A DNA stretch of 61,457 nucleotides, from positions 81,913-143,369 of the forward strand of contig CAVGUB010000111.1 of the NCBI GenBank assembly GCA_963632375.1, written 5' to 3'. Positions within the stretch are counted from its first letter, which is position 1; every line of letters starts with the position of its first letter. The notes under the pieces are model-generated. The model was given only the letters and a program-made list of their open reading frames with translations. It had not been told where the DNA came from and did not search any database. Origin of the DNA: Phocaeicola dorei. GTDB lineage: Bacteria; Bacillota_I; Bacilli_A; RFN20; CAG-826. This document shows, piece after piece, positions 3,706 through 60,193 of the stretch. The position numbers and the translations under genes are program-made.

Positions 3706-6324
3706 TTAAGTATCAGATAGTGCATATTTGTACAAAAACCATTGTTTTATTGAAGTTTTTACAACTTCCCCACTTCCGTTTGGAATATATAAATAATCAA
3801 GATATTGAAATTCAAGACTAATTCTAGAACTTGTATTTACATATTCTATTGTTTTTTCATCCTTTACTGAATATATAGTTTGATTATCATTTGGTCAAAT
3901 AGTCAAAGTCTTGTTTTTATTCATATGAATTAGTTTGATATATTGACCATGTTTTGGATTACTTGGAAGTTTTAAACTCATATCTGATGTATTATTTACT
4001 CAATAATAACTATACTCATTTAACAATATATCATTATTCTCAGCTTCGTCTGTATGGATCATTTGATTAGAACCCGTTATATAATACGGTGCAGGTTTAA
4101 AACCTGCTATTGTACCATTACCACAATTTAATGCGAAATTATAATTACTTGTATACGCCTCTGTGTTTAAATACAAACCATTGCAAGCAGGCATTTCGTA
4201 ATTTAAAACATTTGCATAAGAATTTGGTAATGTTTTTGTATATACAGAAGAAAGATATGCCCCATATAAAATTCTTCTAATTTCGCCTGAAGGGACTTCA
4301 GTAATCTCTGCATTGTTAGAATTTATTTTGAATTCGTTTTTAGTTGTTTTTGTTTCTGTTTCAACTTCATCTCAAGTAAGCGGCGCATCGAATTTAATTC
4401 AAAATGAATTTGGATATACGTTTGCAAAATTAGTACTTTTATCCCCAGCAGTTGAATCAGCGTACGCGATTCCATTACTATCTATTTTTCATTTACCAAT
4501 AATTCCGCTATTAGCTCCAATTGTACCGTTTTTGGTAACATAGAAACCACCATCGCCCAATTCAGGTTCACCTTTGTCTGATATTGTAACATCTCCCGCA
4601 ATAATGGTTCCATCACCACGTAATTCAAGATTTCCACTTGAATGTTTGATAACACCACCATCAATATATCAGCCTTGATTAGTACCTATTAACATTGTAC
4701 CTGTAGACAAAGTTTCAAAACTTGAAATCTGTACTCATATCTTTGCATCAGATCCTGGTTTTATATTTATATTTTGTGTTGTTTCATCAAAACCAATACA
4801 CTTCCAATAGGTTCAAGAAGATGAACTAGCGTCTGCATAAGATACGTAATCCAAATAATAAACCTCTTTATCTACATCTTCTGTTTCTAAAGATACCGTT
4901 TTTCCATCATAATATCTATCGGTTTCATTTCATTTTCTAAAACGACTAATAGCACCTGACTTACCTGCTTCACCCGGATCACCTTTCGTACCTGTAGCAT
5001 ACACACCTCAATGTTCTGTATCTTGATCTGGTGTAACATCACTTGTAACTTTTGATTTACAAATATACGATACAACGTTACCATCAACAGTATATGTTAC
5101 AATATCGTTTTGTGTGTAAGTGTTTACGGAACTTCACTCACCTCTAAAGATTGTTATTGGTTGTTCACCAGTTCCATCTCTTTGAACCATTACACCATCA
5201 AGAAGTAAATTGCCATCACCGTACATCAAACGTTCACCTAATTTTAGTTTGTCGTTTTGCAAATCGAGGAAACTTGTACCATCTGGCGATGCAAATAAAT
5301 AAGCTCTCACTTGACCAGGTGTAATTTCTGTGAAACCGTTCATTGTGCTGATACTAGGACAACTACTTCCATTTGTTACAATGGCATAAAGCATATAATA
5401 TCATTCATCACCCTCATTGTATTCTACTGCATTCTGTGTATAGTAGAAATAACCTGTACCTGTTTTAGCATATAAACCTGGTCCATTTTTAGTGTCATCG
5501 GGGGATTCTTTTTCAGCATAAAATACGGTAGGCTCACCTGAATAATATTTACCACTTTCTGTGTCATATTCAAGACTAATATTAGCACCATTTAAGCCTG
5601 TGCCCTGTTTTTCAGGATTACTTTCTTGAATGCCAAGTACACTCTTATATGGAACTACCAAATAACAATAATATGCCTCATCATTATTTAGGGTTAATAT
5701 CATTGATTCTTCTTCACAATCCTCGTTAAGGATTTGTCAACGCCAATAATCATTTCCACTTCTACTTTGATTATCTGGAGTAACCGATGATGGGCCATCT
5801 AAAGTGTAATGTTTTATATATCCTGGTGTAAATTCTACAAACCCGTCATCATTAAGTTTCAATGGGCTTTCGGCCACAGACATATCTGTAAAACTCTTAA
5901 CTCATTCAAATTGTAGTTGTTCTGATCCTACAGAAATTTGCATTGTACTAACTGTTATTGGAGAAATAGTTTGTGTGTATCCATTTAACAATGCGTTTTC
6001 TAGAGCTTTTTGTGTTTTTGTTACATCTTCCCAAGAACGAGTCGTAACATAATTTTTTAATTTTCTACGTAAATCCTCGGATGTAATATAATCATCTAGA
6101 TTGATTTGTTCTTGTTGTTGATTATTGGAATCAGAAGAATCTTCAGATGTACTGTCTGTAGCTTGTTCTACAGCCTTACCAATTAAACTGTCAATATCAT
6201 TTAATTTTCCATAATCAATTTCATATAGTTTATCTCGAACCTTTATATATAAATGTCCAGATGTTTCAAGAATCAAATCTTTATTTGGTTTTCCTAAAAT
6301 TTCACCATTATTTATTAATGCCAT
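3706..6324 (-). CDS. Large virion structural protein (about 872 aa, function unassigned)
   Basis: Track fragments 5902..6324, 5401..5703, 5134..5394 and 4000..4194 are all in one frame. My hand translation of 3706-4390 found only TGA interruptions and a TAA at 3706-3708. The off-frame track ORFs 4482..4664 and 4887..5087 look spurious. Confidence 0.65.
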
Positions 6325-6901
6325 AATATTCTATATTAGCAATTGTTGTATGTGGATTTTTTGAAATAACATATACATTTTGATCTTTAATCTTTTTTGT
6401 TTTTCAAAGGAATCCTAAGAATCGTTTATATTGTGTAGTAGCACTTATAACAAGGGAGTCTCTACTAGCAACATCTACTTTAGCAGTATCCTTATAAACA
6501 ATTCCATCCACAGATACTCATTTATCTTTCCATGAAAAAACTTTTGCAGTATCTCTGTATATGATACTATCCCTTACTTGGGTTATTATTTTTATTTCTG
6601 TTTTTGTGTTGTTTTTTATAAGATTGTTTAAATCCTCATTCTTCTTTTTTAAAGCATTGATTGTTCTTAAATCCTCAGCTTTATAACGTTCTAGTTCACT
6701 TATACGTAATGTCAAAATTCCATTTTGTGCTGCAGATAAACTATCTTTTGTTTTTCAAGTAGTACATTCAGTTAATGCAGCATCCATGTTACGTTGATAT
6801 CTATTTTTAGCATCTTGTATATGATTAATTCTAACCTGTTGAATGGAAATAGTCCCAATTAAACAAGCTATTATTCCAATTAATATTAACTTTATTTTCA
6901 T
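6308..6901 (-). CDS. Membrane-anchored or lipoprotein-like coiled-coil protein
   Basis: ATG 6899-6901. N-terminus is MKIKLILIGIIACLIGTISI (hydrophobic, Cys-containing), followed by a coiled-coil-like region. Several in-frame TGA; TAA at 6308-6310. Overlaps the next gene's start by 17 nt. Confidence 0.55.
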
Positions 6902-22527: not shown

Positions 22528-23352
22528 TTAAAACAATTTAATAGGGAACATATCCCCAAATACTCAATAATCTCTTATTAAATCATCTCCTTTTATAGGA
22601 TTTAAATATTTAATCCCTTCAAATTTAATCTTTGAAGTACATTCGCATTTACTGTTGTCAGAATCCCTAAGAAACAAACCAAGACACTCGGAACTTTCAA
22701 GAGCATCTAAAAGCTCAGATGCTTCTCTGTGCTGGTAACTAGAGGTATATTCACGTATCAACAATAAAGCAGAAAGTAATACATTACGTTTATATTGAAG
22801 TTCTTTGTCAACTTTATGATTTTGCTTTTTAGAATCCTCATATGTTTGTTCAGCCTCAACAAATGCTTTCTTCAAAAGCTCATAAGAAAAAACGTAATAT
22901 TTTACATATACTGCATCATTGTTTCCTTCAACTCAAGCTCCAGAGTCCAATAAATTAAACAAGTCTTTTATTGCTACTTCATTACACTTAGATAAATCAA
23001 TTATGTCTAGATTTTCAGTATTATAATACACTTTCTGTTTATAATAGAAGAAAGAATATTTTTCTAACTTACCATCTAATACATATTTCTTTATCCTAGG
23101 AATTAAGATTCTATAAAAAGCATGCATTCCGTCTTCAGGAAGAGCAAATGATGCTTCTTTCAAATCATTTTCTGAAGTAATGTTTTCAATAATAGAAACA
23201 TTGCTTAATTGATCATCTTTTAAAATACAGTCAATGCAAACATAATTTGTTAAATCTAAATCTCTATATTCTTCTAAAACGTCCTCAACAATAAGATTGC
23301 CACCTTTAAATGAGAACTCCAGTGCAGGTTTATTATTAACAGAAGCTATCAT
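22528..23352 (-). CDS. Hypothetical protein (274 aa)
   Basis: Track ORFs 22933..23352 and 22564..22875 share one frame and are joined across TGA codons. TAA at 22528-22530. Its ATG overlaps the portal TAA. Confidence 0.55.
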
Positions 23353-25553
23353 TATAAGTTTTTAATTGCATCGTTATAAGGATTACTATCAAAAAGTTGA
23401 GATGCTTCTAATTGAAGTTGCTTTTCTTTAACCTCGATAAGCTTCTCATTATGCTCCTTATCATCTTTGGCTTTCTTAGTATCTAAATCAATCCTTTGTT
23501 TTTCAAGATTTAACTTAGTCTCACTATTCTTATCAATAGTTTTATTAAGATTCTTGTTTTCCTCTTGAAGTTGTTGATTTTGTTTTTGAAGTTCTTTTGC
23601 TTGCTGAGTTAATTGATCTAATTGTTGTTTTAATTGACCAAGCATATTATTTTCTTGTTTCTTAGAAGCAACAGCATCGTTGATATAACCTTTCAGCTCT
23701 GTTATATTTTTAGATGTCATAATGTTAAATACCATTGTAGGATCAATTAATCCTGCTTTGATCATTTCTGTACTTGTTGCTTGTAATACTTGTTTATCCT
23801 GGAATGATTCTGTACTATCCAAAATATGAATATCAAAATCAGTCATAGTATAATACTCAGGTAAAGCAGTAAAGATTTGATTTAATCTAGTTCCATTTAT
23901 AATAGTTCCTGTAAATCCTTTTTTAAATACGAATTTAGCAAGATTTAAAATATCATAATTTACTTCTTTGTAAATAGCATCCATTGTGGAGAAATACTGC
24001 TTTGTTAGTAAAGAAGATTGTCTAATTCCAACCTTTACATTACTTACAGCATCTCTTTGTTGAATTCCGCCCAATTTCTCAGCAAATACACCTGTAATTG
24101 AACTAGCTTGTTGTTCAATACTTTGTAAAACCAATTCAAATGCTTGAACCGCTTGTGCACGAACAGAATCATCATATCCATTAAATGCAGTGTTTATAAG
24201 ATTAGCGCCATCTTGTGAAGAATCATATAAAGCAAGTCCCTGCTTTTTATACGCTAACCATTTTTGAAGCCTGTCTGGTAGCTCAACACCTAATGCGCTC
24301 GGCATGGATGCGATATCAACTCAATCTCCAGTTGTTCCAGATGAAGCTAATAGACTATCTCTAAAGAAGATTACGAGATCATATCGATCCTGCAGATCCA
24401 TTGTATTTAACACAATACTAAACGGATCTCCGTTTCGATCCGCAAGAAAAGCACCATTAATACTTAAAGTGCAATCCTTTGGATTTGATATAGATCGAGA
24501 GATGTATTTTGATTCACCTCTAACAATGTAAATCTCATCTCCAATCTTAACACCTTCGTGACGAGTTAGTCTGTTTTCTTTTTCATCATATACTAATCAT
24601 TCACACTCATAAACACAAATCAAATTGGTATTCGTGTTATACATATTAGTAGAAGTAGTTCTAAAAGGGGATACTTCCAAACCACCTAAAATACCTGGTG
24701 TGACAGTGTTCTGTGGAAGTGGTTCCATACTAGTGGTAACATATGTATAAACCTCATTTGTATTAGAAGATGAATGATAAAGTTTTTTAGATATTTTCTC
24801 TTTAGCTTCAGAAGATAATTCATCACCAAATTCTACCAAGATTTGTTCTCTAGTCATTCATCTTCTAACAACAGCTCTAGGCGATTTATTTAAATAAAAC
24901 TCACTATAGTTTCTTTCTATAAATGTGTCATTAGGATTTAATGCCTCAAATTTAATTGAAGTACCACTGTTAGAAGGTTTTACTCTATAATACGCAGTTC
25001 CTGTAACTAACAAATCAGTCAAAAGCTCTCGCATTTTATTTTTCATATCAATGTCACGAGAGTGTTTTGCATAATTTAAGATGTTTTGTGCTGCTAATTC
25101 ATATTCAGACACATAGCTTTTAGCAACATCATTTTTGACTCTGTTTAACTCTTGTTCGAAATACGGGTCGTTTACTGGTTCTTTACCTTCTTGAAAAACT
25201 TGTAAAATAGCATTTTGTAATTTCTCTTTATAGAAATTATATGCAGCTGTATCAATTTTCAATTGCTCATCACGCATAATATTTGATACAGTCTTTTCAT
25301 CTTTACAAGAAATTTGTAAATCAGGATCAAGTTCCAGGTATTCTCCAATTAACACATCAATATGCTTTTTAATCAAAGGTGTAAAACCTACAGATGTTGG
25401 AGTTCCTAAACCGTAATTCTCTTCAAGATGTCTAAATTGTTCCTCATCACGTATACAATGATAATAGTTATATGCTTTCTTTATTTGAGTTTTCTCATAA
25501 ACTAAATCAGCGATACATGAATTAATTTTCTCAATTTCAATATCTTTATTCAT
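23352..25553 (-). CDS. Portal protein (about 733 aa)
   Basis: Track ORFs 24858..25553, 24597..24857 and 23352..24305 share one frame. Hand translation of 24306-24596 shows only TGA interruptions (24597-24599, 24321-24323). The call rests on size and position just downstream of the terminase. Confidence 0.7.
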
Positions 25554-25815
25554 CTCGATATTCTTTTATAGCATTTCAAAACTTTATTTTATTCATTTTA
25601 CGAGTTTTCATTTCTTTTCGAATAAATTCTTTAAACTCTTCTTCTGTGCCTTGATATGCTAATTCAATTGGAGTAAACTCCAAATCTAAATAAAGGAATA
25701 ACCCTCATAAAGGAGGGTCTTCATTTTCATCTTTTTCTACTTTTAATTTCCCAATATATTTACAACCAATTGAATCCTCAATTAGTTGAAGAATGTCTTG
25801 TTCTATGCTTTCCAT
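25546..25815 (-). CDS. Small hypothetical protein (89 aa)
   Basis: ATG 25813-25815; two TGA. TAA 25546-25548 overlaps the portal start. Confidence 0.45.
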
Positions 25816-28022
25816 GAATTTGTCGGAATCACACCGTAACGTTTATAACCTCTTGCATCTGTATATCATCCAAAGTCTTTTCAGGTATTTTTAACTTGGG
25901 TTGTACTAGCTGGAATGATACCAGTCATATCTTCATCACCTAATTCTGCCATTTGCATTGATGCGATAATATCGAATTTTCTCTTATTTGCATAAGAATA
26001 ATTCAATAATTGGTCTAACATTTCTTCAAAATCAATAGTAGACCAAAAGTCATTTAAGAAATTGGCGATGAGCTCAAGACCATGTCTAATCATAGATTCA
26101 GTACCAGGTACACCTATTAAACGTTTATTGGATTTTGATTTTCGTAATGCGCCGGATATTGCTATAGCGGGTCTTGCCATTAAGAGGTTTTCTTTTCCAT
26201 GATCTCTAAAATATGTTTGAATCGATATTTTAGTATACTCTAACATTGCTTGACAATTATATCACGTAAGTAATTTCATTGTCAAATCATATGCTTGTCT
26301 TATATCATTAGGTCTATATTTATACATTGCAACATACTTTGCAGGACTAGACCCATATACTCTACGTTTTATAACAACACAAAAATCAGATACGTCACTA
26401 TCAGATGCAGAATCTTTACGTCCCATATCAATAGCATCTATACCTGCAACATATAAACCTTTCATTGGTCTACCGCTATCATCTGTAAGCGGTGGTTCAA
26501 CAACTAACAATGGAGATGATTGACTTTCTTTAGCAATTACTTTACTTCTTCCATTTTCGTAATTTAGATCTCATAACAATGATACATGTTTAGGTTTAGT
26601 ATAAGCATTTTGTGTTTTTATTTGTACTATTCGTTCTGCTATAATCGCAGCATCGAATACGTTGTCACCATGTTTAGAAAGTGCTTCTCTTGGTGTAAAA
26701 CAGTGTTCGGCACATTCATTTAAATAATCATTATCGGATAATTTTGCACGTTGCTCTTCATAGAATTTTTTAAATTCTGGTCAATTTGTTACTCCACGTG
26801 AATCAAGATATTTTGATGTCAACGCAAATTTATGAGCTGGCACAAAGAAGGCTGTAAGTTCTGGCCTACCATCATCAGAATCATAATTTTTATATGGTAA
26901 TATGTTATATCCTCTAGGATTAAGAAACATTGTTCGTAATCCTTCGAGCTTCATGTCGTCTCCTCCAGTACCGACTACAAACCTGGTTCCAAATCGTTCA
27001 CCACCTAATGATACAAGTGCATCACCTTTAATTCAGGATTCAGTTAAACATGGATTGGATCCACCCTCATCGAGAATTAATCTATCTACCCTCGATCCTC
27101 TGACTTTATCTGAAGTATCAGCTACAATACTTTGTATCTGAGAACCTCAACCAAATTCAACATTGTCTACAGTTTTCTTTGAAGCGCGTTTTGTATCATT
27201 ATTGTTAACAACTTGTCTAACATGCCGCATACCGCCACCGGTATTCATATTAAGTCAGTCTAACTGTCTTCAACATTTTTCGCGCAAAGGTGCTAATTTA
27301 GCATCTGCTGCGCAGGATATAATCACATCGTAATTAGGAATAACGGTATAAGGTCTTACAGCTAAATCAGCTAAGATTTCAGAAAAACCAATACCTCTAG
27401 CTTTTAATGCACCAACATCTTTCTTCAGTTTTTCTGCCATTTCAATATAATGAAAAAATTCATATTGTTTGGAAAGAAAACCTGGAAAAGATTCCATACG
27501 ACCCTTACCTGCTGTAGAACTTTCCTTTACAACTTCCATTCTATAATAATTTAGGAAGAAGTAATGATCTCCAGTTATTCTATATTTTCCTACAGTATAT
27601 CCATTTTTACATCGATCAACTTCTTTATTCCAAAACTCTCGTCACTTTTTTGTGCCCTTTGGAAATTCGGTATATTTACCTGTTCTATCATAAACTTCGC
27701 CAGTAACTTTAAATGGGGTAGGATCAAAATCTAATCCACTTTCCATAGTAATGGGTCTATAACCTGTAATCTCGTAAGAAAGTTCTGGATCAAAGTATTC
27801 AATTTCCTCTGTAATTGGTACATCCCATTTTTCACCGGGTCTTGCTTTATGAACACTTGTTTCTGATTGTAAAATTGATTCTTTATCTAACTCATTGTTA
27901 TTTTGAGTCTCCTCAAACAATTGTCTTTTTAACTCCTCCTCATAATTTTCACTAAATGTCATTGCTTTTTCCTCAAGACGTTTAGCTTTTTGTATAGGAG
28001 TTTCCATTTTCACAACGCTCAT
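25803..28022 (-). CDS. Terminase large subunit (about 739 aa)
   Basis: Track ORFs 27642..28022, 27270..27539, 26262..26510 and 25881..26246 are in one frame. I hand-translated 26880-27270 and 25803-25881. Motifs include ITGDHYFFLNYYRM, RVDRLILDEGG and GLYVAGIDAIDMG. Ends at TAG 25803-25805. Confidence 0.85.
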
Positions 28023-28033
28023 ATTTTCAGATA

Positions 28034-28612
28034 TTAATCCAAGAAACCTAATTCAGCATCACCTCGTACTTTATCTCCACTAGCAGCAAGATCACTTTTA
28101 TGCATCGTTTCAAGCTCTTTTAACTGCTTACGAATTTCTGAAATTGATTTTATGTCTGCAATAACATCTTTAGGTTTGTATAAAGGTCTACCATCAGCAT
28201 CTACATCCATATTAAAATCAATATTATCCAAAAATACTTGCATTTTGTGCAATGTTTTATATGCTGTTTGTATTAATGAAAGTATAGGATCAGCATCACG
28301 TATCTCTTGATATTTATGATAAGCTTTTAAAAACGTTTCGTCTTTCAAATCTTTTTCAGATAAACCTGAATCATCTAAAGCAGCTTCATGTTTATCTTTC
28401 TCCAAATATTGAAAATAAGGAGATTTGAAATCCAAAACCAAGTAGATATAAGTTAATTCCTTATATGCTCTCAGTCTTCGCTTTCCTGTCTTATCCTCTT
28501 TACATTTGTTTCGATCAATATCTCAAAGAGCGTTAAATTCCTTAACTAATAGAATACTATATTCTTCTATTGTTAACTTGTTTTCTGAGTTGTCATATAC
28601 AAAAAAATTCAT
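28034..28612 (-). CDS. Possible terminase small subunit (192 aa)
   Basis: ATG 28610-28612; one TGA at 28523-28525. Joins track ORF 28034..28441. The call is positional only. Confidence 0.4.
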
Positions 28613-35876: not shown

Positions 35877-38018
35877 TTAAGAAGAACTACCAGGAGTAAT
35901 GCTCCATAGATCAGACAGATCTTCTTTGGTTCCTTGATATATATAGCAGCATAATTTAGCTTTTCACGGTCTACCTAATGTACCGTCAGAAGCTCTATAT
36001 CCACCTATCAATAAACTCAAATCAACATCTGGAATTGCATATGCATAAGTTGTTCAAGTTGTACCATCGGTAGTATAATACAATGTATCACCGGAACGAC
36101 GTATACCAGCACATACATCGTTATTTGAGCGCACGATATTCGCTAATTGACTCGATGCAGTAATAATCTGGCAATCACATAGTGTACTTCAGGTGCCTGA
36201 TTGAACGGTAAATCCTGGATATGGACTAACTTCATTCATACAGTGTAAAGCTGTTTCTTGTGTTCCAGTAGGCGCTGTTTCAATGAGTGAGTGTATAAAT
36301 ATTGTCCATTCAGTCATTTCATCAGTAAATATCTTGTAACCAGTATCCACAATTTCAGATGTATCACTACCAGTAAATGTTTTATTGACAGAATAAAGCA
36401 ATACAAGATTCATAACAGTTAATTTCACTGTAGATGACAATGTTTCATCACCATTTGGTACAGCTGTTATTGTAATTACATCAGATACTGATGCGTCAGA
36501 ATTTACAGTTAATGTCATGGTAGATTCATCAAATGTAGCGTTACCTGTTACTGTATAAACAATAGTTGGAGATTCAAGATTTGTCTTATAACTAACTGTA
36601 ACAGAAGCTCCGACACCAGGTGTAGCATTTGAAACTGACAATGTAAAGTAATCTGCTGTATTTAATCATTCTTCAGTTTGAGATCAGCGTTGTACAATAA
36701 ATTTTCTAATCTGCTGTACATTATTTGTACTTGTGGATGGAATATTTACAAATGCACCATCGGCTGTAGAAGTACTATAATCTTCTGCTATTAAATCATT
36801 AGAATTATAGTTTGTTCAATCCTCAAACATCTTAATAAGATTCTCCCTCGAAAGAACTGTTTCTTTCAACTCAAGTCACCTTGCATAAATTTCCTCTTTA
36901 AACAAAGAAGCCAATCTAATATAAAGCAAGTTACCAGATCTAGAACTTTGAAAATCTTCATAAGAACTTCTTGGATAAGTATAACTCAGTATCTGTGAAC
37001 CATCTCAATACAAACCCCATGTAGAATCCAAATCATATGCTTGAGCTATAAAATGCTGTCCGTCATAACATTGTAGCATTTGGTTTTTTCCAAAACCATC
37101 TAGATGGCACGACATTATTCCAAATACATAGTAATCAATTAAACTAGGTACGTCAAAATAATCCGACAAAGAACTTTTAAAAGTATCATCGTCACTATCC
37201 ATACAAAAAGCAATTGCATCAGTAAGTCTAGTTTTAATTGTATCTGGAACCGTATCATGCAGCTCATCAGTCCAATCAGTCCCATCTATTACTGGGGCTG
37301 CTCTAAAGCAAGCGGATACATAATTTTCGCCACAAAGAATTACTTGAGATTCATTATTTGAATCCATATTAGCCATTCAAGCATCCTTCGGTATATTAAA
37401 ATCATACCTTCCTTGATATTCTCCATTTACATAGAACTTGACCAAGAATCCATCAATAACGCCTTGATTAGGGGAAGTTCTCAATTCTTCAGGGTAACTT
37501 GAATATGTACTTCTAGATTGTACTATTTGAGATCAAATTCTTGCTGATACAACATTTCTTGCATGAGAAATATCAATTCAGTTTGCTTTGATTACATACT
37601 TGCTTTGTTTTCCTCAACCAAAATCGTATTTGAATTTAGATGAGCAATCAGCATCTTTATATAATTTTATTGTAAAATTTTTCTTTGGATAAGAAGCAGA
37701 TGATGTTCCTTGTACTTTTAACGTTCCATAACAACGCATAACAACATCCCCATACATATAAGTAATCTTTCCTTTAAAATTACCATCATCTTTAGACGTA
37801 GGAGTGTCTCCAGTTCAAAACAATTGTGGTAATGTGTTGAAAGTATCTTTACTTACATTATGTGTTGTTTCGGGAACGGTTGATTCTGTAGAAGGAGTAT
37901 ATTCTGTTCATCCATCTGCTAATATCATTGCTGAAGTAGGATTTCCGATAACCTTACCGTCAACAATAACAGTAATATATTTACTGTCTTTAATTATTCC
38001 ATTCTTTATATATAACAT
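35877..38018 (-). CDS. CotH-domain fibre/receptor-binding protein with C-terminal Ig-like region (about 713 aa)
   Basis: ATG 38016-38018. Hand translation of 37377-38018 gives ...GTSSASYPKKNFTIKLYKD...KYDFG-W-GKQSKYVIKAN-W-IDISHARN...GFLVKFYVNGEYQGRYDFNIPKD, which is CotH-like. Joins track ORFs 37005..37376 and 36189..36641. TAA at 35877-35879. Confidence 0.6.
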
Positions 38019-38021
38019 ACT

Positions 38022-46195: not shown

Positions 46196-46747
46196 ATGGC
46201 ATTGAGTAAATCTGACTCGCCAGTTGTATACACACAGACTGGCGTGACTGCCGTAACAGGCAGTCTTGAGAGCCTAAAGGGCTCTCACGTATCCTTCAAC
46301 GGATACGGTATCGATGTGAACGAGACCGTCACATTCGGTACTATTGAAGAGTACGGTCTCGATGGGAACATTAAGAGAGTTCCAACCTATAACGGTTCAA
46401 GCCGTTATAGCATCTTGGTACGTGTAAATCGTACCAAAAACGGAGTCACTAAAGACTCCTGGTTCAACATGGGCGTTTTATCACGTCAGTTGAACGCTGC
46501 TGATGGCAAATCTCTCCCTGTAGATAAATTCAGGGAAGATATGATTGCAATCGATGACGATTATAATCGATTGATTGCAATCGCGGGGAAAACCATCAAG
46601 GGTGTCGAAACGAAAAAAGCGTTTCGCCCTGTCTTTGAGCGTTCAAAGGACGCTCAAGGCAAACCGGTCTTCACTGTCGTGAAGAACGAGGACGGCTCCC
46701 GTAAAATGGAGCCTGCAGAGTACGTAGTTGTTGATTATGTTAAATAA
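46196..46747 (+). CDS. Hypothetical protein (183 aa)
   Basis: First ATG of track ORF 46181..46747. TAA stop. Confidence 0.6.
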   Translation: MALSKSDSPVVYTQTGVTAVTGSLESLKGSHVSFNGYGIDVNETVTFGTIEEYGLDGNIKRVPTYNGSSRYSILVRVNRTKNGVTKDSWFNMGVLSRQLNAADGKSLPVDKFREDMIAIDDDYNRLIAIAGKTIKGVETKKAFRPVFERSKDAQGKPVFTVVKNEDGSRKMEPAEYVVVDYVK

Positions 46748-46787
46748 TCAACAATTTACTGTACTCGGTGACCACTGAGAGAATTAT

Positions 46788-46837
46788 ATCATATCCAATG
46801 TAGGCAAATTGTTTGTCTGCAATGGATATGATTTTTT
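46788..46837 (+). terminator. Intrinsic terminator (21-bp imperfect hairpin plus T6)
   Basis: ATCATATCCAATGTAGGCAAA ttg TTTGTCTGCAATGGATATGAT TTTTT. Confidence 0.7.
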
Positions 46838-47309
46838 AAATCTCAGAGGTTACTGAACTTTAGAACCTTGTGGTGAATGTTATATCATCATTAGGTTCCA
46901 ATATCTTTAATCCAGAGTGGAGTGATATCCTATCTGGGTTCTAATGCATTCTTGCATTATTTTTATGTTTTTTTTATTTTTTTTGGACATCAAATCATTG
47001 ATCCCAATTCTAGTTACCGTGTTTTGCGCACTTGAGCGGTCGTTAGTTTGGATAAATCAATGGTTTGATATTATGTGTAAACGAAAAGTTAAAGTGCGCC
47101 ATTTACCCTGAGTGAGATATCAGGTAGCATAGAGATACATCTGTGCGAACTTAGGTTCCATGTAACAGTGGAGTTTCGAGCCTAAGAGTACAAGTTCGAA
47201 ACCTTGTACTAAATCCGAAGATGCTGAAGAAGTATCTGAATGTATCAACCCTATAATAGGTGTGTAACTTGCATGCATCTAGACTATTATGGGGTAACTT
47301 CCTTTATAA

Positions 47310-47474
47310 GCAATACCTTTACGTGGTTTGGAAGATAAGTAGACTTATGTCGAAACTAAAATTGCTGAACACAATCAATTTCTTTAGTCATAATTCTGTA
47401 GTTTTTGTGGTTTAAGTAGTTTTTCTTTTTTCCAATTGATTGTGTTTAACTGCACAGCAGTGAATGCTCTGCAG
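47310..47474 (+). ncRNA. Structured RNA candidate, unit 1 of a tandem pair
   Basis: Closing stem GCAAT/ATTGC around ACCTTTACGTGGT...ATAAGTAG...CGAAACTAAA. Then a 13-bp hairpin (47368-80/47434-46), then hairpin CTGCACAGCA gtgaa TGCTCTGCAG. Confidence 0.5.
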
Positions 47475-47487
47475 AATGGCATCGATG

Positions 47488-47599
47488 ATACATACCTTTA
47501 CGTGGTGATGCTATAAGTAGGTTTATCCGAAACTAAATGTATTAGAGTCATGGTAGTCTTAACACCTACAGCAGTGAATGCTCTAGGTGTTTTCTTTTG
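47488..47599 (+). ncRNA. Structured RNA candidate, unit 2, ending in an intrinsic terminator
   Basis: Closing stem ATACA/TGTAT around the same conserved strands. Terminal hairpin CACCTACAGCA gtgaa TGCTCTAGGTG, followed by TTTTCTTTT, 28 nt before ATG 47628. Confidence 0.5.
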
Positions 47600-47627
47600 A
47601 AGTTTAACAAATTAAAACAATATAACA

Positions 47628-48074
47628 ATGAAAGTAAGTGAAGTTACAAAACTAGCGTTTGATTTTGGATCGAAGAAATATCTCATCGAGGAGAACGGAG
47701 ATCTCAAACTCTTAACCCTTCTAAAGAAGGTTGAACCTTCTGCAATTTGTTCAGAGATGCATAAATCTCTGATTGCTCGAATGACTCACTGTCGTGAACA
47801 GATTGAGCAGAAAGAGGTAGTATTTTGTGAACCCGATTTTATTGGGTTCTCAGATGGTACACATTTTTCTGCACATGCATATAATGCAATGGAGTCTTTG
47901 AGTAACATATTATCTTCAGTAAAAGTATCTAATCCCATGAAATTTATTCAACGATTGAATGCTTTTGAACTCATTCAGTTACTAAAGGCTGAATCTGAGT
48001 TTGGTGGCCGTTTAAAAAACGAAGTCATCAATATAATCTCAAATTGTATTGCTTGTAACTACAAAAATGATTAG
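47628..48074 (+). CDS. Hypothetical protein (148 aa)
   Basis: Intact ORF, TAG stop. Confidence 0.6.
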   Translation: MKVSEVTKLAFDFGSKKYLIEENGDLKLLTLLKKVEPSAICSEMHKSLIARMTHCREQIEQKEVVFCEPDFIGFSDGTHFSAHAYNAMESLSNILSSVKVSNPMKFIQRLNAFELIQLLKAESEFGGRLKNEVINIISNCIACNYKND

Positions 48075-51162: not shown

Positions 51163-51226
51163 AATATGTTAGTTTAGTGGTAAAACAAACTTTTAGTTTA
51201 CATAGGTTCGATTCCTATACATATTT
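51163..51226 (+). ncRNA. tRNA-like gene with truncated anticodon arm (tRNA pseudogene or mimic)
   Basis: Acceptor AATATGT/ACATATT, D arm GTTT-AGTGGTA-AAAC and T arm ATAGG-TTCGATT-CCTAT are canonical. Only 15 nt lie between the D and T arms, folding as AAACT-TTT-AGTTT (5-bp stem, 3-nt loop). Total length 64 nt. Confidence 0.5.
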
Positions 51227-53282: not shown

Positions 53283-53366
53283 AGCTCTATGTCGAAATAG
53301 GTAGCCGAGTCAGATTTAGGATCTGATGTTTGTAAAAACGTAAGGGTTCGATTCCCTTTAGAGCTA
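53283..53366 (+). tRNA. tRNA-Leu (anticodon TAG), class II
   Basis: Acceptor AGCTCTA/TAGAGCT. Anticodon arm TCAGA-TTTAGGA-TCTGA with anticodon at 53317-53319. Long variable arm (GTTT-GTAA-AAAC). T arm AAGGG-TTCGATT-CCCTT. Discriminator A. Confidence 0.85.
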
Positions 53367-53393
53367 CAAGAGTTTTTATATACTCATTTTTTA

Positions 53394-53583: not shown

Positions 53584-54978
53584 ATGGATAAATTTCTTGA
53601 AGCAATCAGTACAAAAAATACTTATACTGATAACGGAGCTTTAACTAACAGTACTTCTTTAAATAAGTGCTTAGACTTTTTTTCAATAGCAGGTAATCAT
53701 ATTGAGAATATAGAATCTTTTGAAGCAGCTTATGGAGAAGATCCACAACTTGCTTTAAGAATTTTATTTTGGAGTAGAGATTGTAGAGGTGGTGCTGGTG
53801 CTCGTAAAAACTTTATTGCTGTAATGAAGAAACTTCAAGTTGAAAAACCTGATGTTTTTTCTAAAGTCTTTAAGTTTATACCTGAATTTGGCTATTGGAA
53901 AGATATTTACAATCTAAAGCCCACACAAGAAGTTGTTAGTTTTGTTGCTAAAACATTAAAGAATGATACAGATCATTCTTTATGTGCTAAATACTGTCCT
54001 CGTAAAGGAGAATGGTTTTATCATCTTCGTGTTCGTTTTAAAATGTCTTTAGCTCAATTTAGACATTTTATTGTTAAGAAAACTCAAGTAGTTGAAAACC
54101 AAATATGCAAGAAAGAATGGAATGAAATAGAATATTCTTCTGTTCCTTCTGTGGCAAATCTTCGTTACAAAGAAATATTTACAAAATATGATTTTAAACG
54201 TTATAGGGAGTATATTAAATCTGTTCTTAAAGGAGAAAATAAGATTAATTCCTCTGTTTTGTTTCCAAATCAAATATTTCATAATTGGGACATTGGTTTA
54301 AGAAAGGATGGGGATACTGCTAAAGCCTTGTGGGATAATCTTCCTAATTATATGGAAGGTTGTACAGAAAGAATTCTTCCTGTATGTGATGTGTCAGGTT
54401 CTATGTGTGGTACTCCATTAGAAGTTTCTATTGCTTTGGGTTGTTATATTTCAGAACGTAATGAAGGACCTTTTAAAGATGCTTTTATAACGTTTAGTGG
54501 AAAACCTCAAATTAATATCTTAACTGGTGATATTATATCACGTTTCTCGCAGTTATCTAATGCAGATTGGGGATATAATACAAATCTTCAAGCTGTATTT
54601 GATTTGATTTTAAAACGAGCATTGGAAAACAATCTTTCTAATGACGATATGCCATCTAAGATATTGATCATAAGTGATATGCAATTTGACAAAGCCTTGA
54701 AAAATAGAGAAAGATTTGGAAATCCCGAAATCACTAATTATGAGGCAATTAAAGATGCATATGCTTCGTATGGTTATAACCTTCCTGGTATAATCTTTTG
54801 GAATGTTAATGGAGATGCTGGTAAAGTTCCTGTTACAATGAAAGACTTTAACACTGCCCTTGTGTCAGGATATTCTCCTAGTATTCTAACATCCATTCTT
54901 AAAGGTAAAGTATTAACTCCAATAGACGTTATGCTAAATACCGTAAATAGTGAACGATATAAAAACATAAAATTATAA
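53584..54978 (+). CDS. DUF2828-like protein with C-terminal vWA (MIDAS DxSxS) domain
   Basis: N-terminus ...YTDNGALTNSTSLNKCLDFF...LALRILFWSRDCRGGAGARKNF and VCDVSGSMCG fit the DUF2828/vWA architecture as I recall it. Confidence 0.6.
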   Translation: MDKFLEAISTKNTYTDNGALTNSTSLNKCLDFFSIAGNHIENIESFEAAYGEDPQLALRILFWSRDCRGGAGARKNFIAVMKKLQVEKPDVFSKVFKFIPEFGYWKDIYNLKPTQEVVSFVAKTLKNDTDHSLCAKYCPRKGEWFYHLRVRFKMSLAQFRHFIVKKTQVVENQICKKEWNEIEYSSVPSVANLRYKEIFTKYDFKRYREYIKSVLKGENKINSSVLFPNQIFHNWDIGLRKDGDTAKALWDNLPNYMEGCTERILPVCDVSGSMCGTPLEVSIALGCYISERNEGPFKDAFITFSGKPQINILTGDIISRFSQLSNADWGYNTNLQAVFDLILKRALENNLSNDDMPSKILIISDMQFDKALKNRERFGNPEITNYEAIKDAYASYGYNLPGIIFWNVNGDAGKVPVTMKDFNTALVSGYSPSILTSILKGKVLTPIDVMLNTVNSERYKNIKL

Positions 54979-56091: not shown

Positions 56092-56162
56092 TGAGATGTA
56101 GTATAATGGTAATACAAAAGATTTTGGTTCTTTTATTCAAGGTTCGAATCCTTGCATCTCAA
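56092..56162 (+). tRNA. tRNA-Gln (anticodon TTG)
   Basis: Acceptor TGAGATG/CATCTCA. D arm GTAT-AATGGTA-ATAC. Anticodon arm AAAGA-TTTTGGT-TCTTT. T arm CAAGG-TTCGAAT-CCTTG. Confidence 0.85.
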
Positions 56163-56196
56163 CGAGTTTTATACTCATGGTATTTTTATTTGACAA

Positions 56197-59115: not shown

Positions 59116-59727
59116 ATGGGTTATTCAACAACTTTTAGATTAAAAGGTGAAATTGATGAACGATTTCAACCAAATAAATATAGGGTTCCAAATGTATCCA
59201 AATCTATGTCAATTTTAACTGCAATTTGTTTACATAAATTTGTTATTGAGACTAAAACATTTTGTTTTTATACAACATTTGAACAAATTTATGAAAATTT
59301 AAGATTTGCGTTACATGAACTTATTTGTGATGTTGAACAAGTTGTTAAACAAAATTTTGTTTTAGATAAAAATAAAGAAATTTATTTTTACGGTTGGCAA
59401 TATTCAGATGAATCTTCACGTTTAGGATTTGATACACTTGAAGAATTTGAAAAATGTATTCTTGATCAATTGTTTCAAATAGTTGCTTGTCCTACTTCTA
59501 CAAGATTTGATAAAAATCATGAAGATTTTAACGAAAAAGAAGACCAAATATCAGATATTCTCAATGATATCGAATATGAAGTTAAAGAAATTGTAACATT
59601 TAATTTTGTACAATATTATCGTGAGCATCCAGAACTTGCAGATGAAGATGACGGCATAAAACATTTCTTCCCTAAAAAAGAAACTGAAAAACAATCTGAA
59701 GAAAAAACAGATGGGACAAACAAATAA
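59116..59727 (+). CDS. Hypothetical protein (203 aa)
   Basis: Intact ORF. Confidence 0.55.
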   Translation: MGYSTTFRLKGEIDERFQPNKYRVPNVSKSMSILTAICLHKFVIETKTFCFYTTFEQIYENLRFALHELICDVEQVVKQNFVLDKNKEIYFYGWQYSDESSRLGFDTLEEFEKCILDQLFQIVACPTSTRFDKNHEDFNEKEDQISDILNDIEYEVKEIVTFNFVQYYREHPELADEDDGIKHFFPKKETEKQSEEKTDGTNK

Positions 59728-60193
59728 TATCATATTTCTTGATATTGATGGGGTTTTGAATTACACAAAGTGGTATCAAGGTCTTATTCATTATAAGTAT
59801 CTTGATGAGGAAGATCTTGATCCAATTTGTGTAGAACGTGTTAAAATCATTTGTGAAATTTGTGATGCTAAAATTGTTATATCATCTGATTGGAGATTGG
59901 ATTGGGATGTCACTTTGAAACGATTGTCTAAATTTGGTTTAGATAATAATTTTATTATTGATAAAACACCATTTTTAAATTTTTTAGAAGTTAAAAACAT
60001 TAATCGAGGTAAAGAAATAGACGAATGGTTAAAAAACAATAAATGTGATAATTATCTAATTTTAGATGATATGCGAGGTATTCAGAAAAACTTTACTAAA
60101 GAGCAAATAAAGCATTTAGTTTGGATAGATCCATTTTATGGATTGACAAATAAACACGTTAAACAATCATTAAATATCTTTAATATCTTGTAA
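59711..60193 (+). CDS. HAD-like hydrolase
   Basis: The N-terminal IIFLDIDGVLN motif and later ISSDWR / LILDD segments fit a HAD-fold phosphatase. Confidence 0.5.
   Translation: MGQTNNIIFLDIDGVLNYTKWYQGLIHYKYLDEEDLDPICVERVKIICEICDAKIVISSDWRLDWDVTLKRLSKFGLDNNFIIDKTPFLNFLEVKNINRGKEIDEWLKNNKCDNYLILDDMRGIQKNFTKEQIKHLVWIDPFYGLTNKHVKQSLNIFNIL

What the first reader, a model, noticed from the sequence alone, without database searches (positions are those of the whole stretch)
46748..47627. 880-nt ORF-free region: hairpin-dense segment followed by a tandemly duplicated structured RNA
After two terminators (46788-46837 and about 46943-46990), the region contains many stems. Two of them interleave in pseudoknot order: ATCAAATCATTGAT/ATCAATGGTTTGAT (about 46994/47067) and GCGCACTT/AAGTGCGC (about 47031/47093). 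Further stems are CTTAGG...CCTAAG, AGTACAAG-ttcgaaac-CTTGTACT and CCCTATAATAG...CTATTATGGGG. Two homologous units then follow (47310-47474 and 47488-47599). In both, a 5-bp closing stem that differs between copies (GCAAT/ATTGC versus ATACA/TGTAT) encloses the identical strands ACCTTTACGTGGT and CGAAACTAAA plus an ATAAG-hairpin. Both end in a hairpin whose inner part CAGCA-gtgaa-TGCTC is conserved while the outer pairs covary (CTGCA/TGCAG versus CACCTA/TAGGTG). Only the second is followed by a T run, 28 nt before ATG 47628. Two conserved domains followed by one terminator resembles either tandem small RNA genes or a tandem-aptamer cis-regulatory leader. The size and ornateness of the whole region, and its location in a phage that also carries tRNA genes, make it worth comparing with large phage-associated ncRNA classes.
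Basis: partly seen in the sequence, partly recalled or inferred. Interest (0 to 1): 0.7.

Follow-up and report, generated by a model that had tools for sequence, protein, structure and literature searches.

The report
Two HDV-like self-cleaving ribozymes in phage
The two "homologous units" are self-cleaving RNAs of the hepatitis-delta-virus fold, from a widespread phage subfamily that the databases and papers I searched do not describe; they most likely cut a long hairpin-rich non-coding transcript into defined pieces just upstream of a small orphan gene.

Summary
The 880-nt gap is ORF-free and very hairpin-rich. The two repeated units are two HDV-like self-cleaving ribozymes, not aptamers or small-RNA genes: W1 at 47298-47366 and W2 at 47478-47544.

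A covariance model built only from seven sequences of other phages hits both units (53.7 and 49.8 bits) and nothing else in the window.

Across about 100 distinct relatives, every helix of the nested double pseudoknot is kept by compensatory changes. P1 is 96-99% paired, P3 99.5-100%, the single P1.1 pair is intact in every sequence with letters at both positions (40/40 and 63/63), and P4 is 91-95% paired. P2 has at least 5 contiguous bp in 89% of sequences, against 13% in a swapped-partner control. One cytosine in J4/2 is invariant in the 27-sequence alignment.

The true units start 10-12 nt further upstream, at the P1 5' strands.

Rfam's HDV families miss this subfamily, and its motifs are absent from the published theta-ribozyme data.

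Relatives sit at tRNA 3' ends (19%), or right after a stable hairpin (43%), often 22-37 nt before an ORF. W1 and W2 are of the hairpin type.

Self-cleavage is predicted, not shown. The upstream hairpin array remains unexplained.

The phage reads TGA as sense in its late genes.

The parts
46765..46856 (+). 92-nt imperfect hairpin.
   Evidence: Inverted repeat I1; MFE fold with z -8.9 for 46748-46990. The weak miRNA-precursor-like Rfam hits reflect only a long hairpin.
46942..46984 (+). Terminator-like hairpin UAAUGCA-UUCU-UGCAUUA plus a 25-nt U-rich tail ('terminator 2').
   Evidence: Sequence; fold.
46989..47099 (+). 81-nt hairpin (46989-47069). Its apical loop GCGCACUU (47026-47033) can pair with AAGUGCGC (47092-47099), a possible H-type pseudoknot. 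Function unknown.
   Evidence: Inverted repeat I2; folds. No homologues were found, so covariation could not be tested.
47107..47237 (+). Five consecutive hairpins: 47107-47124, 47127-47146, 47150-47186, 47187-47210 (T-loop-like UUCGAAAC loop) and 47219-47237. The stretch 47149-47216 is at best a decayed tRNA-like relic.
   Evidence: Fold with z -4.8 on + against -2.7 on -. ARAGORN calls a poor tRNA here only at a 70% threshold. No Rfam tRNA hit at E<=10.
47249..47294 (+). Stable hairpin ending 3 nt before the W1 cleavage site. It is the predicted 3'-terminal stem-loop of the upstream cleavage product.
   Evidence: Inverted repeat I9. A hairpin within 6 nt upstream of the site occurs in 42/98 family members against 8% of random windows.
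47298..47366 (+). W1, an HDV-like ribozyme. Predicted cleavage is between A47297 and C47298. P1 is 47298-47302 paired with 47330-47334 (5 bp, then two U.U). P2 is 47309-47314 with 47361-47366. P3 is 47315-47317 with 47325-47327. L3 is 47318-47324. P1.1 is U47320-A47335. J1/4 is 47335-47341. P4 is 47342-47351. The putative catalytic C is 47356.
   Evidence: Model R1, built without window sequences, scores 53.7 bits, E 1e-9. Family covariation.
47368..47446 (+). Long spacer hairpin with 13-bp perfect arms and a 53-nt U-rich interior.
   Evidence: Inverted repeat I3; fold.
47450..47474 (+). Hairpin A (CUGCA-C-AGCA-GUGAA-UGCU-C-UGCAG), ending 3 nt before the W2 cleavage site.
   Evidence: Direct repeat D1; fold.
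47478..47544 (+). W2, an HDV-like ribozyme. Predicted cleavage is between U47477 and G47478. P1 is 47478-47483 paired with 47507-47512, with a G1.U wobble. P2 is 47486-47493 with 47537-47544. P3 is 47494-47496 with 47504-47506. L3 is 47497-47503. P1.1 is U47499-A47513. P4 is 47520-47528. The putative catalytic C is 47533.
   Evidence: R1 scores 49.8 bits, E 9e-9. Rfam RF02682 (HDV-F-prausnitzii) aligns the same P1/P3 at 17.2 bits, below its gathering score of 44.
47561..47599 (+). Hairpin A' plus UUUUCUUUU. It shares the 17-nt core of hairpin A but has a different outer stem. It is terminator-like and lies 28 nt before the ATG at 47628.
   Evidence: Inverted repeat I6 and direct repeat D1; fold.
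47628..48074 (+). Downstream 148-aa orphan ORF with no Shine-Dalgarno. It is the presumed recipient of the processed 5' leader.
   Evidence: ORF list. Its only match among 5.8e9 proteins is itself. No Pfam or PHROG hit.

Best explanation
Positions 47298-47366 (W1) and 47478-47544 (W2) are two diverged members of a phage-borne subfamily of HDV-like self-cleaving ribozymes.

**Fold.** Each forms the nested double pseudoknot:
- P1 is 6-7 bp (5 bp in W1).
- P3 is RCC/GGY around the L3 loop UUUACGU.
- P1.1 is a single base pair.
- P4 is a variable hairpin flanked by the conserved strands AUAAGUA and GAAA.
- J4/2 is C-UAA. Its cytosine, conserved throughout the family, is inferred to be the general acid.

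**Reaction (inferred).** During or just after transcription of the + strand, each ribozyme should cut at the 5' edge of its own P1, at 47297|47298 and 47477|47478. The upstream RNA is left with a 2',3'-cyclic phosphate. The downstream RNA is left with a 5'-OH.

**Expected products (inferred).**
- Each site lies 3 nt after a stable hairpin, so each upstream product should end in a protective stem-loop. These products are the roughly 310-nt hairpin array and a 180-nt piece made of W1, the spacer hairpin and hairpin A.
- The RNA carrying the 148-aa ORF should start with a compact 5'-OH ribozyme, followed by hairpin A' and a U-run that must be read through.

**Function (inferred).** The ribozymes act as cis RNA-processing and insulating elements. 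They uncouple the downstream message from the long structured leader. This parallels relatives that sit 22-37 nt before ORFs, and others that trim tRNA 3' ends.

**Shown versus inferred.** Shown: family membership, the fold by covariation, and the context statistics. Inferred: catalysis, the in vivo products and the stabilising or insulating role. My confidence is about 0.85 for the identity as an HDV-like ribozyme and about 0.45 for the specific functional role.
For: **Independent model**
- R1 was built from seven viral sequences that exclude the window.
- It hits W1 at 53.7 bits and W2 at 49.8 bits. Nothing else in 61 kb scores above 15 bits.

**Covariation**
- Viral set, 40 distinct sequences: P1 is 95.9% paired with double changes at all 7 pairs, P3 is 100% paired, P1.1 is intact in 40/40 (UA 37, GC 2, CG 1), and P4 is 91% paired. 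The covariation score is 0.74, against 0.21 when shuffled and at most 0.17 when slid.
- Metagenome set, 64 distinct sequences: P1 98.8%, P3 99.5%, P1.1 63/63, P4 94.6%.
- P2 has at least 5 contiguous bp in 89% of sequences, against 13% with swapped partners.

**Sequence agreement with known HDV-like ribozymes**
- The C of GAAAC is invariant in the 27-sequence alignment. The other C, the one that closes P4, is often U.
- Rfam's HDV-F-prausnitzii model aligns W2 with the same P1, P3 and L3 (ACCUUUACGUGGU against consensus aCCUCUaCGUGGu) and the same C-UAA.

**Context across about 98 distinct members**
- A tRNA 3' end lies within 5 nt of the predicted site in 19 members, at exactly 0 nt in 12 of them.
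- A stable hairpin ends within 6 nt of the site in 42 members, against 8% of random windows.
- An ATG-ORF starts 10-45 nt downstream in 20/89 members, against 7.3% in controls. The downstream ORFs are unrelated to each other.
- Several copies per contig and tandem arrays are common.
- Other ribozyme classes (Pistol, Hatchet, hammerhead) lie nearby in related loci.

**Strand**
- The + strand folds far better than the - strand, and the flanking genes are on +.
Against: - No cleavage assay or transcript data are available.
- W1 has only 5 P1 pairs plus two U.U mismatches. Only 2 of 40 distinct sequences lack a standard pair at the sixth P1 position (column 9 with 52), so W1 may be slow or dead.
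- About 38-50% of the family, W1 included, has C1-G instead of the canonical G1.U at the cleavage site.
- J4/2 is longer than in canonical HDV-like ribozymes, so the assignment of the catalytic C rests on conservation and on one weak Rfam alignment.
- No Rfam HDV family reaches its gathering score on any family member.
- No promoter was identified.
- Hairpin A' plus its U-run lies between W2 and the ORF, so the link between ribozyme and ORF is less direct than in relatives.
- The upstream hairpin array has no homologues and no assigned function.
Confidence: 0.78

Rival explanations
1. The ribozymes are decayed or inactive relics. On this reading the whole gap is a degenerate tRNA-ribozyme array, like the intact arrays in related phages, that no longer does anything beyond providing hairpins and terminators.
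For: - W1 has a weak P1.
- A decayed copy exists elsewhere: L001 9725-9809 has only 5/7 P1 pairs, while its close relative in L026 has a perfect P1.
- A poor tRNA-like relic with a good T-arm lies at 47149-47216.
- An aberrant tRNA-like gene lies at 51163-51226.
- Relatives are often embedded in tRNA arrays.
Against: - W2 keeps every family feature: a 6-bp P1 with G.U, P1.1, an 8-bp P2, P3, P4 and the invariant C.
- W2 shares the hairpin-3 nt-site layout that is enriched in the family.
- Both units score 50 bits or more, in the middle of the family range.
Confidence: 0.1
2. The functional products are the released small RNAs themselves: a 180-nt piece (W1 + spacer hairpin + hairpin A) and a roughly 120-nt piece (W2 + hairpin A'). 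They would act in trans, or be bound through the conserved GUGAA hairpins. The ribozymes would only define their ends.
For: - The 17-nt core of hairpins A and A' is identical while the outer stems differ.
- The second unit ends in a hairpin plus U-run.
- The phage carries Ro/TROVE-like and RNA-repair-type genes.
Against: - There are only two copies of the hairpin, so conservation cannot be tested.
- No target or partner was identified.
- In relatives the ribozyme is followed directly by an ORF or a tRNA, not by such a hairpin.
Confidence: 0.08
3. Tandem ligand-binding aptamers (a riboswitch) control the A' terminator upstream of the 148-aa ORF.
For: - There are two homologous structured domains followed by one terminator-like hairpin.
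- From my own knowledge, one HDV-like ribozyme (F. prausnitzii) has been reported to respond to a metabolite.
Against: - No riboswitch family matches at E<=10.
- The fold is the HDV double pseudoknot.
- Family members sit at tRNA 3' ends and in arrays with no expression platform.
- The two units are not each other's closest relatives.
Confidence: 0.02
4. Part of the gap encodes a TGA-recoded protein on the minus strand (46907-47278, 123 aa). The hairpins there would then be incidental.
For: - The phage reads TGA as sense in its late genes. A CotH domain spans 7 in-frame TGA codons.
- Under code 4 this ORF is open and starts with ATG.
Against: - Its codon-usage score is -0.048 per codon, against 0.33+-0.12 for real genes. 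Only 1.3% of in-frame windows score as low, and 16% of out-of-frame windows score as high.
- It has no homologue among 5.8e9 proteins.
- It would run through the U-rich terminator tail as a run of lysines.
- The + strand folds much better than the - strand.
- It does not touch W1 or W2.
Confidence: 0.02

Closest known systems
HDV-like ribozyme of Faecalibacterium prausnitzii (drz-Fpra-1; Rfam RF02682)
   Same: It has the same fold and a nearly identical P3/L3 (aCC-UCUaCGU-GGu against ACC-UUUACGU-GGU). A C-UAA precedes the P2 3' strand, and it cleaves at the 5' edge of P1 (alignment).
   Different: W2 scores 17.2 bits against a gathering score of 44, and W1 is not detected. No family member in 13 loci passes the threshold. 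J1/4 is AUAAGUA rather than AGGCAAC. An extra conserved GAAA lies between P4 and the catalytic C. The first pair is often C-G.
Theta ribozymes (minimal HDV-like ribozymes of gut phages; Kienbeck et al. 2024, PMC10879173)
   Same: Both are phage-borne HDV-like ribozymes, often with several per genome. In 19% of this family the cleavage site is at a tRNA 3' end, which is the theta context. Theta ribozymes are enriched in stop-codon-recoded phages, and the window phage is TGA-recoded. That paper also reports many non-tRNA copies in non-coding regions with unknown function.
   Different: Theta ribozymes are minimal: about 56 nt, a shortened L4 loop and no extended P4, the catalytic C as the first J4/2 residue, and G1 at the site. 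This family has a real P4 with a conserved internal loop and is about 67-115 nt long. Its motifs TTTACGTGG and ATAAGTAG are absent from the 1.4 M characters of theta supplementary data held. W1 and W2 are not next to tRNAs.
Mammalian CPEB3 ribozyme
   Same: From my own knowledge, CPEB3 has an L3 of UUCACGU and a weak P1.1 made of one Watson-Crick pair next to a U.U. Here L3 is UUUACGU, with one covarying P1.1 pair next to a U.U.
   Different: CPEB3 is a single-copy intronic element in mammals with a different J1/4 and a short J4/2 (CGAAU). There is no evidence of direct relatedness.
HDV-like ribozymes at the 5' end of R2/non-LTR retrotransposon RNAs, and synthetic ribozyme insulators (RiboJ)
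   Same: From my own knowledge, a ribozyme at the 5' end of a message cuts it free from an upstream co-transcript and remains as its structured 5' end. This is the role inferred here and in the hairpin-ribozyme-ORF relatives.
   Different: The hosts and sequences differ, and the role in phages is untested. In the window a hairpin plus U-run separates the ribozyme from the ORF.

Membership tests
HDV-like self-cleaving ribozymes (structural class) | P1 helix of about 6-7 bp whose 5' edge is the cleavage site | tested here: met
   P1 is 95.9% and 98.8% paired, with compensatory changes at all 7 pairs. W2 has 6 bp with G1.U. W1 has 5 bp plus two U.U.
HDV-like self-cleaving ribozymes (structural class) | P2 pseudoknot crossing P1 (nested double pseudoknot) | tested here: met
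   P2 has at least 5 contiguous bp in 89% of 83 sequences, against 13% with swapped partners. W1 has AGCAAU/AUUGCU and W2 has UGAUACAU/AUGUAUUA.
HDV-like self-cleaving ribozymes (structural class) | 3-bp P3 with a 7-8-nt L3, and P1.1 between L3 and J1/4 | tested here: met
   P3 is 99.5-100% paired, with A-U/G-C covariation at the outer pair. The P1.1 pair is intact in 40/40 and 63/63 sequences, as UA, GC or CG.
HDV-like self-cleaving ribozymes (structural class) | P4 hairpin, variable in length | tested here: met
   The three closing pairs are 91-95% paired with many double changes. P4 length ranges from 6 to more than 60 nt.
HDV-like self-cleaving ribozymes (structural class) | Conserved catalytic cytosine in J4/2 | tested here: inconclusive
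   One C (47356 in W1, 47533 in W2) is invariant in the 27-sequence alignment and aligns with the C of C-UAA in RF02682. It is the fifth residue after P4, not the first, so the assignment is by conservation only.
HDV-like self-cleaving ribozymes (structural class) | Mg2+-dependent self-scission giving 2',3'-cyclic phosphate and 5'-OH ends | not testable with these tools
   This needs in vitro transcription and cleavage assays.
Rfam RF02682 HDV-F-prausnitzii, and the other Rfam HDV families | Score at or above the family gathering threshold | tested here: not met
   W2 scores 17.2 bits against 44. W1 has no hit at E<=10. No HDV-family hit appears in 13 related loci at the gathering score.
Theta ribozymes (Kienbeck et al. 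2024) | Minimal architecture: short L4 and no extended P4, with the catalytic C first in J4/2 | tested here: not met
   A P4 hairpin is present in all members, and GAAA precedes the conserved C.
Theta ribozymes (Kienbeck et al. 2024) | Cleavage site within +/-5 nt of a tRNA 3' end | tested here: not met
   No tRNA lies upstream of W1 or W2. The feature is met in 19 of 98 relatives.
Tandem-aptamer riboswitch / known riboswitch classes | Match to a riboswitch aptamer model, with an expression platform that competes with the aptamer | tested here: not met
   No riboswitch hit at E<=10. Relatives lack any platform.
Large phage-associated ncRNAs (ROOL, GOLLD) | Match to the Rfam covariance models | tested here: not met
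   No hit at the gathering score in the window, nor at E<=10 in 46600-47750.

The most novel reading that the evidence does not exclude
The gap is a ribozyme-processed non-coding RNA operon. Self-cleavage would release a roughly 310-nt multi-hairpin RNA and a 180-nt RNA whose 5'-OH and 2',3'-cyclic-phosphate ends are ready substrates for an RtcB-type ligase, allowing circularisation. The phage's own RNA-end-handling genes (the Ro/TROVE-like DUF2828 protein and the HAD 'Swiss Army Knife' repair domain) would heal or join these ends. The two identical GUGAA hairpins would be protein-binding sites that gate read-through into the orphan ORF. On this reading the hairpin-plus-ribozyme module would be a general phage device for making defined, stable RNAs without host RNases.
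Probability: 0.07. Interest if true: 0.8.

Novelty: new variant of a known kind. Interest (0 to 1): 0.52.

Why it matters
HDV-like ribozymes are known, and a minimal form (theta) was recently tied to tRNA 3' processing in gut phages.

**What is new here**
- This is a second, larger phage subfamily. Rfam models miss it, and its motifs are not in the theta dataset held here.
- It has a distinctive conserved internal loop at the base of P4. The conserved cytosine sits five residues into J4/2. The first pair is frequently C-G instead of the G.U wobble considered important for catalysis.
- Its commonest setting is not a tRNA. It is a stable hairpin 1-6 nt before the cleavage site, often with an ORF start 22-37 nt after the ribozyme.

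**Why that matters**
- If the ribozymes are active, phages would be using them as built-in mRNA end-makers and insulators. That is a concrete, testable function for the 'isolated' phage ribozymes whose role is currently unknown.
- It gives ribozyme chemists natural variants for probing the roles of G1.U and J4/2.

For genome annotation, such long 'empty' gaps in phage genomes can now be partly explained.

Tried and rejected
- **Rfam.** I scanned at the gathering score over the whole window (3 tRNA-model hits only) and at E<=10 over the region. This gave no riboswitch, ROOL, GOLLD, Y RNA, or other ribozyme class (pistol, hatchet, twister, hammerhead) match. It gave only long-hairpin miRNA-like noise and the weak HDV hit.
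- **BLAST and relatives of the flanking genes.**
  - BLAST of the region against 50,697 phage records found no match.
  - Neither flanking protein has relatives in viral contigs.
  - The 148-aa protein has no relative among 5.8e9 proteins.
  - The only contig carrying that protein (Logan SRR13434610) is identical to the window.
  - As a result, covariation could not be tested for the hairpin array upstream of W1.
- **Local BLAST** of the region against all fetched loci matched only the ribozyme cores.
- **Pattern ATAAGTAG...CGAAACYAAA** gave mostly chance hits in coding DNA. The L3-based pattern was specific.
- **A generic HDV-fold descriptor of my own** found W2 but gave 158 hits against about 127 in shuffles. 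I discarded it as non-specific.
- **The upstream interleaved stems (46989-47099) as a third HDV-like unit:** rejected. The P1-like stem is 14 bp, there is no P3/L3, and R1 finds nothing there even with filters off.
- **tRNA search in the gap:** hits appeared only at permissive thresholds and were poor.
- **A protein-coding reading under TGA recoding** was tested and rejected.
- **Bacteroidota-type promoter motif TAnnTTTG:** none in 44-48 kb. The sigma-70-like hits are at chance level.
- **Host assignment from bacterial genomes:** true hits occur only in a few MAG bins (Faecalibacillus, Sarcina, Erysipelotrichaceae, Melainabacteria, Cloacimonadota). These are probably phage contigs, so the host stays unknown.
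- **Literature.** Four full-text searches found no description of this subfamily.
Full report
**1. The observation**

The gap 46748-47627 has no ORF of 60 aa or more under the standard code. Each of the six frames carries several TAA, TAG and TGA codons, so no single stop reassignment opens a + strand gene.

The region folds far better than shuffled sequence:
- The z-score is -8.9 for 46748-46990.
- It is -5.0 for 46980-47300.
- For 46986-47297 it is -4.8 on the + strand and only -2.7 on the - strand. This points to RNA-level structure on the + strand.

The repeated blocks ATACCTTTACGTGGT, ATAAGTAG(A/G), CGAAACTAAA and ACAGCAGTGAATGCTCT each occur twice, and only here in the 61-kb window.

**2. 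What the two units are**

The first clue was a weak Rfam hit of the Faecalibacterium prausnitzii HDV-like ribozyme on unit 2 (17.2 bits against a gathering score of 44). It also matched ACC-UUUACGU-GGU to the model's P3/L3.

Exact-pattern scans of IMG/VR then recovered dozens of loci with the same core. Parsing them in register showed the same layout in every true instance:
- a 6-7-bp P1 whose 5' strand lies upstream of the 'closing stem';
- the 'closing stem' itself as a 5-9-bp P2 that crosses P1;
- a 3-bp P3;
- a variable P4 closed by the last G of AUAAGUAG and the C/U before GAAAC.

All helices differ in sequence between members.

I built covariance model R1 from seven non-window sequences. 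It hits W1 (47295-47368) at 53.7 bits and W2 (47475-47545) at 49.8 bits. Nothing else in the window scores above 15 bits, even with filters off around the region.

Pair counts on 40 distinct viral sequences and on 64 distinct metagenomic sequences:

| Helix | Viral set | Metagenome set |
|---|---|---|
| P1 paired | 95.9%, double changes at all seven pairs | 98.8% |
| P3 paired | 100% | 99.5% |
| P4 closing pairs | 91% | 94.6% |
| P1.1 (L3 position 3 with J1/4 position 1) | 40/40 (UA, GC, CG) | 63/63 |

- The covariation score is about 0.75, against 0.21 for shuffles and at most 0.18 for slid partners.
- P2 varies in register. A register-free count gives at least 5 contiguous bp in 89% of 83 sequences, against 13% when partners are swapped.
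- One cytosine, in RAAAC-YAA just before P2, is invariant in the 27-sequence alignment. The other C in CGAAAC is the P4 closing base and is often U.

This is the HDV nested double pseudoknot with a conserved J4/2 cytosine. Catalysis itself is inferred, not shown.

**3. Anatomy in the window**

W1:
- Predicted cleavage is at 47297|47298.
- P1 is CUUCC/GGAAG, only 5 bp, followed by two U.U mismatches.
- P2 is AGCAAU/AUUGCU.
- The putative catalytic C is 47356.

W2:
- Predicted cleavage is at 47477|47478.
- P1 is GGCAUC/GAUGCU, with a G1.U wobble.
- P2 is 8 bp.
- The putative catalytic C is 47533.

Other features:
- Each cleavage site lies 3 nt after a stable hairpin: 47249-47294 before W1, and hairpin A (47450-47474) before W2.
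- After W2 come 16 nt, then hairpin A' (47561-47591), which has the same 17-nt core as A. Then follow UUUUCUUUU and, 28 nt later, the ATG of a 148-aa orphan ORF.
- W1 and W2 are only 53% identical. Each is closer to copies in other phages. They are two family members side by side, not a fresh tandem duplication. Only the A/A' hairpins look locally duplicated.

**4. What relatives tell us about function**

Among about 98 distinct evaluable members:
- 19 have a tRNA 3' end within 5 nt of the predicted site, and 12 of those are at exactly 0 nt. This is the setting described for theta ribozymes (PMC10879173).
- 12 have a tRNA starting within 12 nt downstream, meaning the ribozyme sits inside a tRNA array.
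- 42 have no adjacent tRNA but have a stable hairpin ending within 6 nt of the site, against 8% of random windows.
- An ATG-ORF starts 10-45 nt after the ribozyme in 20/89 members, against 7.3% in controls, with a tight cluster at 22-37 nt.

The downstream ORFs are unrelated to each other. Several copies per contig and tandem arrays are common.

Related loci also carry Pistol, Hatchet and hammerhead ribozymes nearby. In L006 and L037 a Pistol ribozyme lies about 100-140 nt upstream of the HDV-like unit, inside a similar long ORF-free leader.

W1 and W2 belong to the hairpin class. The most economical reading is that the ribozymes cut the transcript so that:
- the upstream piece ends in a protective hairpin with a cyclic phosphate;
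- the downstream piece begins with a compact 5'-OH pseudoknot.

This would insulate the downstream message from the long structured leader. From my own knowledge, HDV-like ribozymes at the 5' ends of R2 retrotransposon RNAs and the synthetic RiboJ insulator work this way. An upstream hairpin is also reported to help the genomic HDV ribozyme fold. These parallels are leads, not tests.

**5. What remains open**
- The 46748-47297 hairpin array has no Rfam match and no relatives anywhere. It includes an 81-nt hairpin whose loop can pair downstream, and a hairpin with a T-loop-like loop.
- I found no promoter.
- Whether hairpin A' terminates, pauses or binds a protein is unknown.
- W1 may be impaired by its short P1.

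**6. The recoding question**

The phage reads TGA as sense in its minus-strand late genes:
- ORFs fuse into products of 650-874 aa.
- One Pfam CotH domain spans seven in-frame TGA codons.

Under that code a 123-aa minus-strand ORF (46907-47278) opens across the hairpin array. It does not look like a gene:
- Its codon usage is poor.
- It has no homologue.
- It runs through the U-rich terminator tail.
- It does not overlap the ribozymes.

I treat it as non-coding.

**7. Comparison with the known**

The fold is that of HDV-like ribozymes. The nearest described sequences are drz-Fpra-1 (Rfam RF02682) and the theta ribozymes.

It fails Rfam membership by score, both in the window and in 13 related loci. 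It fails the theta definition because it has a real P4 and four residues between P4 and the conserved C. Its motifs are absent from the theta supplementary data held here. Four literature searches found no description of this subfamily.

True hits in 185,579 bacterial and archaeal species genomes are confined to a handful of MAG contigs. The family is therefore common and essentially phage-borne.

**8. Verdict**

The units are HDV-like self-cleaving ribozymes of an apparently undescribed phage subfamily, which I rate as a new variant of a known kind. Interest is moderate at 0.52, for three reasons:
- It extends the theta-ribozyme story to a larger variant and to a hairpin/5'-UTR context with a testable function.
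- It offers natural C1-G and long-J4/2 variants.
- It leaves an unexplained 550-nt hairpin array.

Noticed in passing
window 600-43700, minus strand (e.g. 3706-6330, 23352-25565, 25803-28070, 35877-38021): The phage reads TGA as a sense codon in its late/structural block. ORFs fuse into proteins of 650-874 aa with 3-14 in-frame TGA codons, and one Pfam CotH domain (E 2e-26) spans seven of them. The plus-strand block (45-61 kb) shows little sign of in-frame TGA; for example, the 466-aa DUF2828 gene has none. No tRNA with a UCA anticodon lies in the window.
   Followed up: partly
window 53584-54978 and 59711-60193: RNA-end-handling genes lie downstream of the ribozymes. One is a DUF2828/DUF7788 protein (PHROG 'RNA-binding protein'; Ro/TROVE-like by my recollection). 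The other is a HAD domain of 'Swiss Army Knife' RNA-repair proteins. They could process the 2',3'-cyclic phosphate and 5'-OH ends that ribozymes make, but this was not tested.
   Followed up: no
window 51163-51226: The Rfam tRNA model scores 47.7 bits here, but ARAGORN calls it only at a lowered threshold and with an abnormal anticodon loop. It is an aberrant or decayed tRNA-like gene. The normal tRNAs are tRNA-Leu(UAG) at 53283-53367 and tRNA-Gln(UUG) at 56092-56163.
   Followed up: partly
window 47450-47474 and 47561-47591: Two hairpins share 17 identical nucleotides (ACAGCAGUGAAUGCUCU) with a GUGAA pentaloop, but have different outer stems. By my recollection the loop fits the GNRNA type of lambda boxB. 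This may be a protein-binding site, but two copies are too few to test.
   Followed up: no
window 46907-47278, minus strand: A 123-aa ORF opens only if TGA is read as sense. It has poor codon usage, no homologues, and runs through the U-rich terminator tail. I judged it non-coding.
   Followed up: yes
L006 7318-7389 and L037 7874-7947(-); L007 18-165(-) and 4201-4277(-): Other self-cleaving ribozyme classes lie near family members. Pistol lies about 100-140 nt upstream of the HDV-like unit in two related phages, inside a 454-nt ORF-free leader in L006. Hatchet and a RAGATH-1 hammerhead lie in a third phage (L007).
   Followed up: partly
L001 9725-9809 compared with L026 3890-4007: The L001 copy has lost P1 complementarity (5/7 pairs, two internal mismatches). 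A close relative with the same 5' strand context keeps a perfect 7-bp P1. L001 is probably a decayed copy.
   Followed up: partly
window, start regions of 43 ORFs: Only 6 of 43 ORFs have even a loose Shine-Dalgarno-like motif. The leaders are A/T-rich and the genome is 32% G+C. This is compatible with a host that initiates without Shine-Dalgarno pairing, but the host is not identified.
   Followed up: partly
window 46728-46754: A perfect 11-bp inverted repeat (TTGTTGATTAT/ATAATCAACAA) straddles the stop codon of the upstream 188-aa gene.
   Followed up: no
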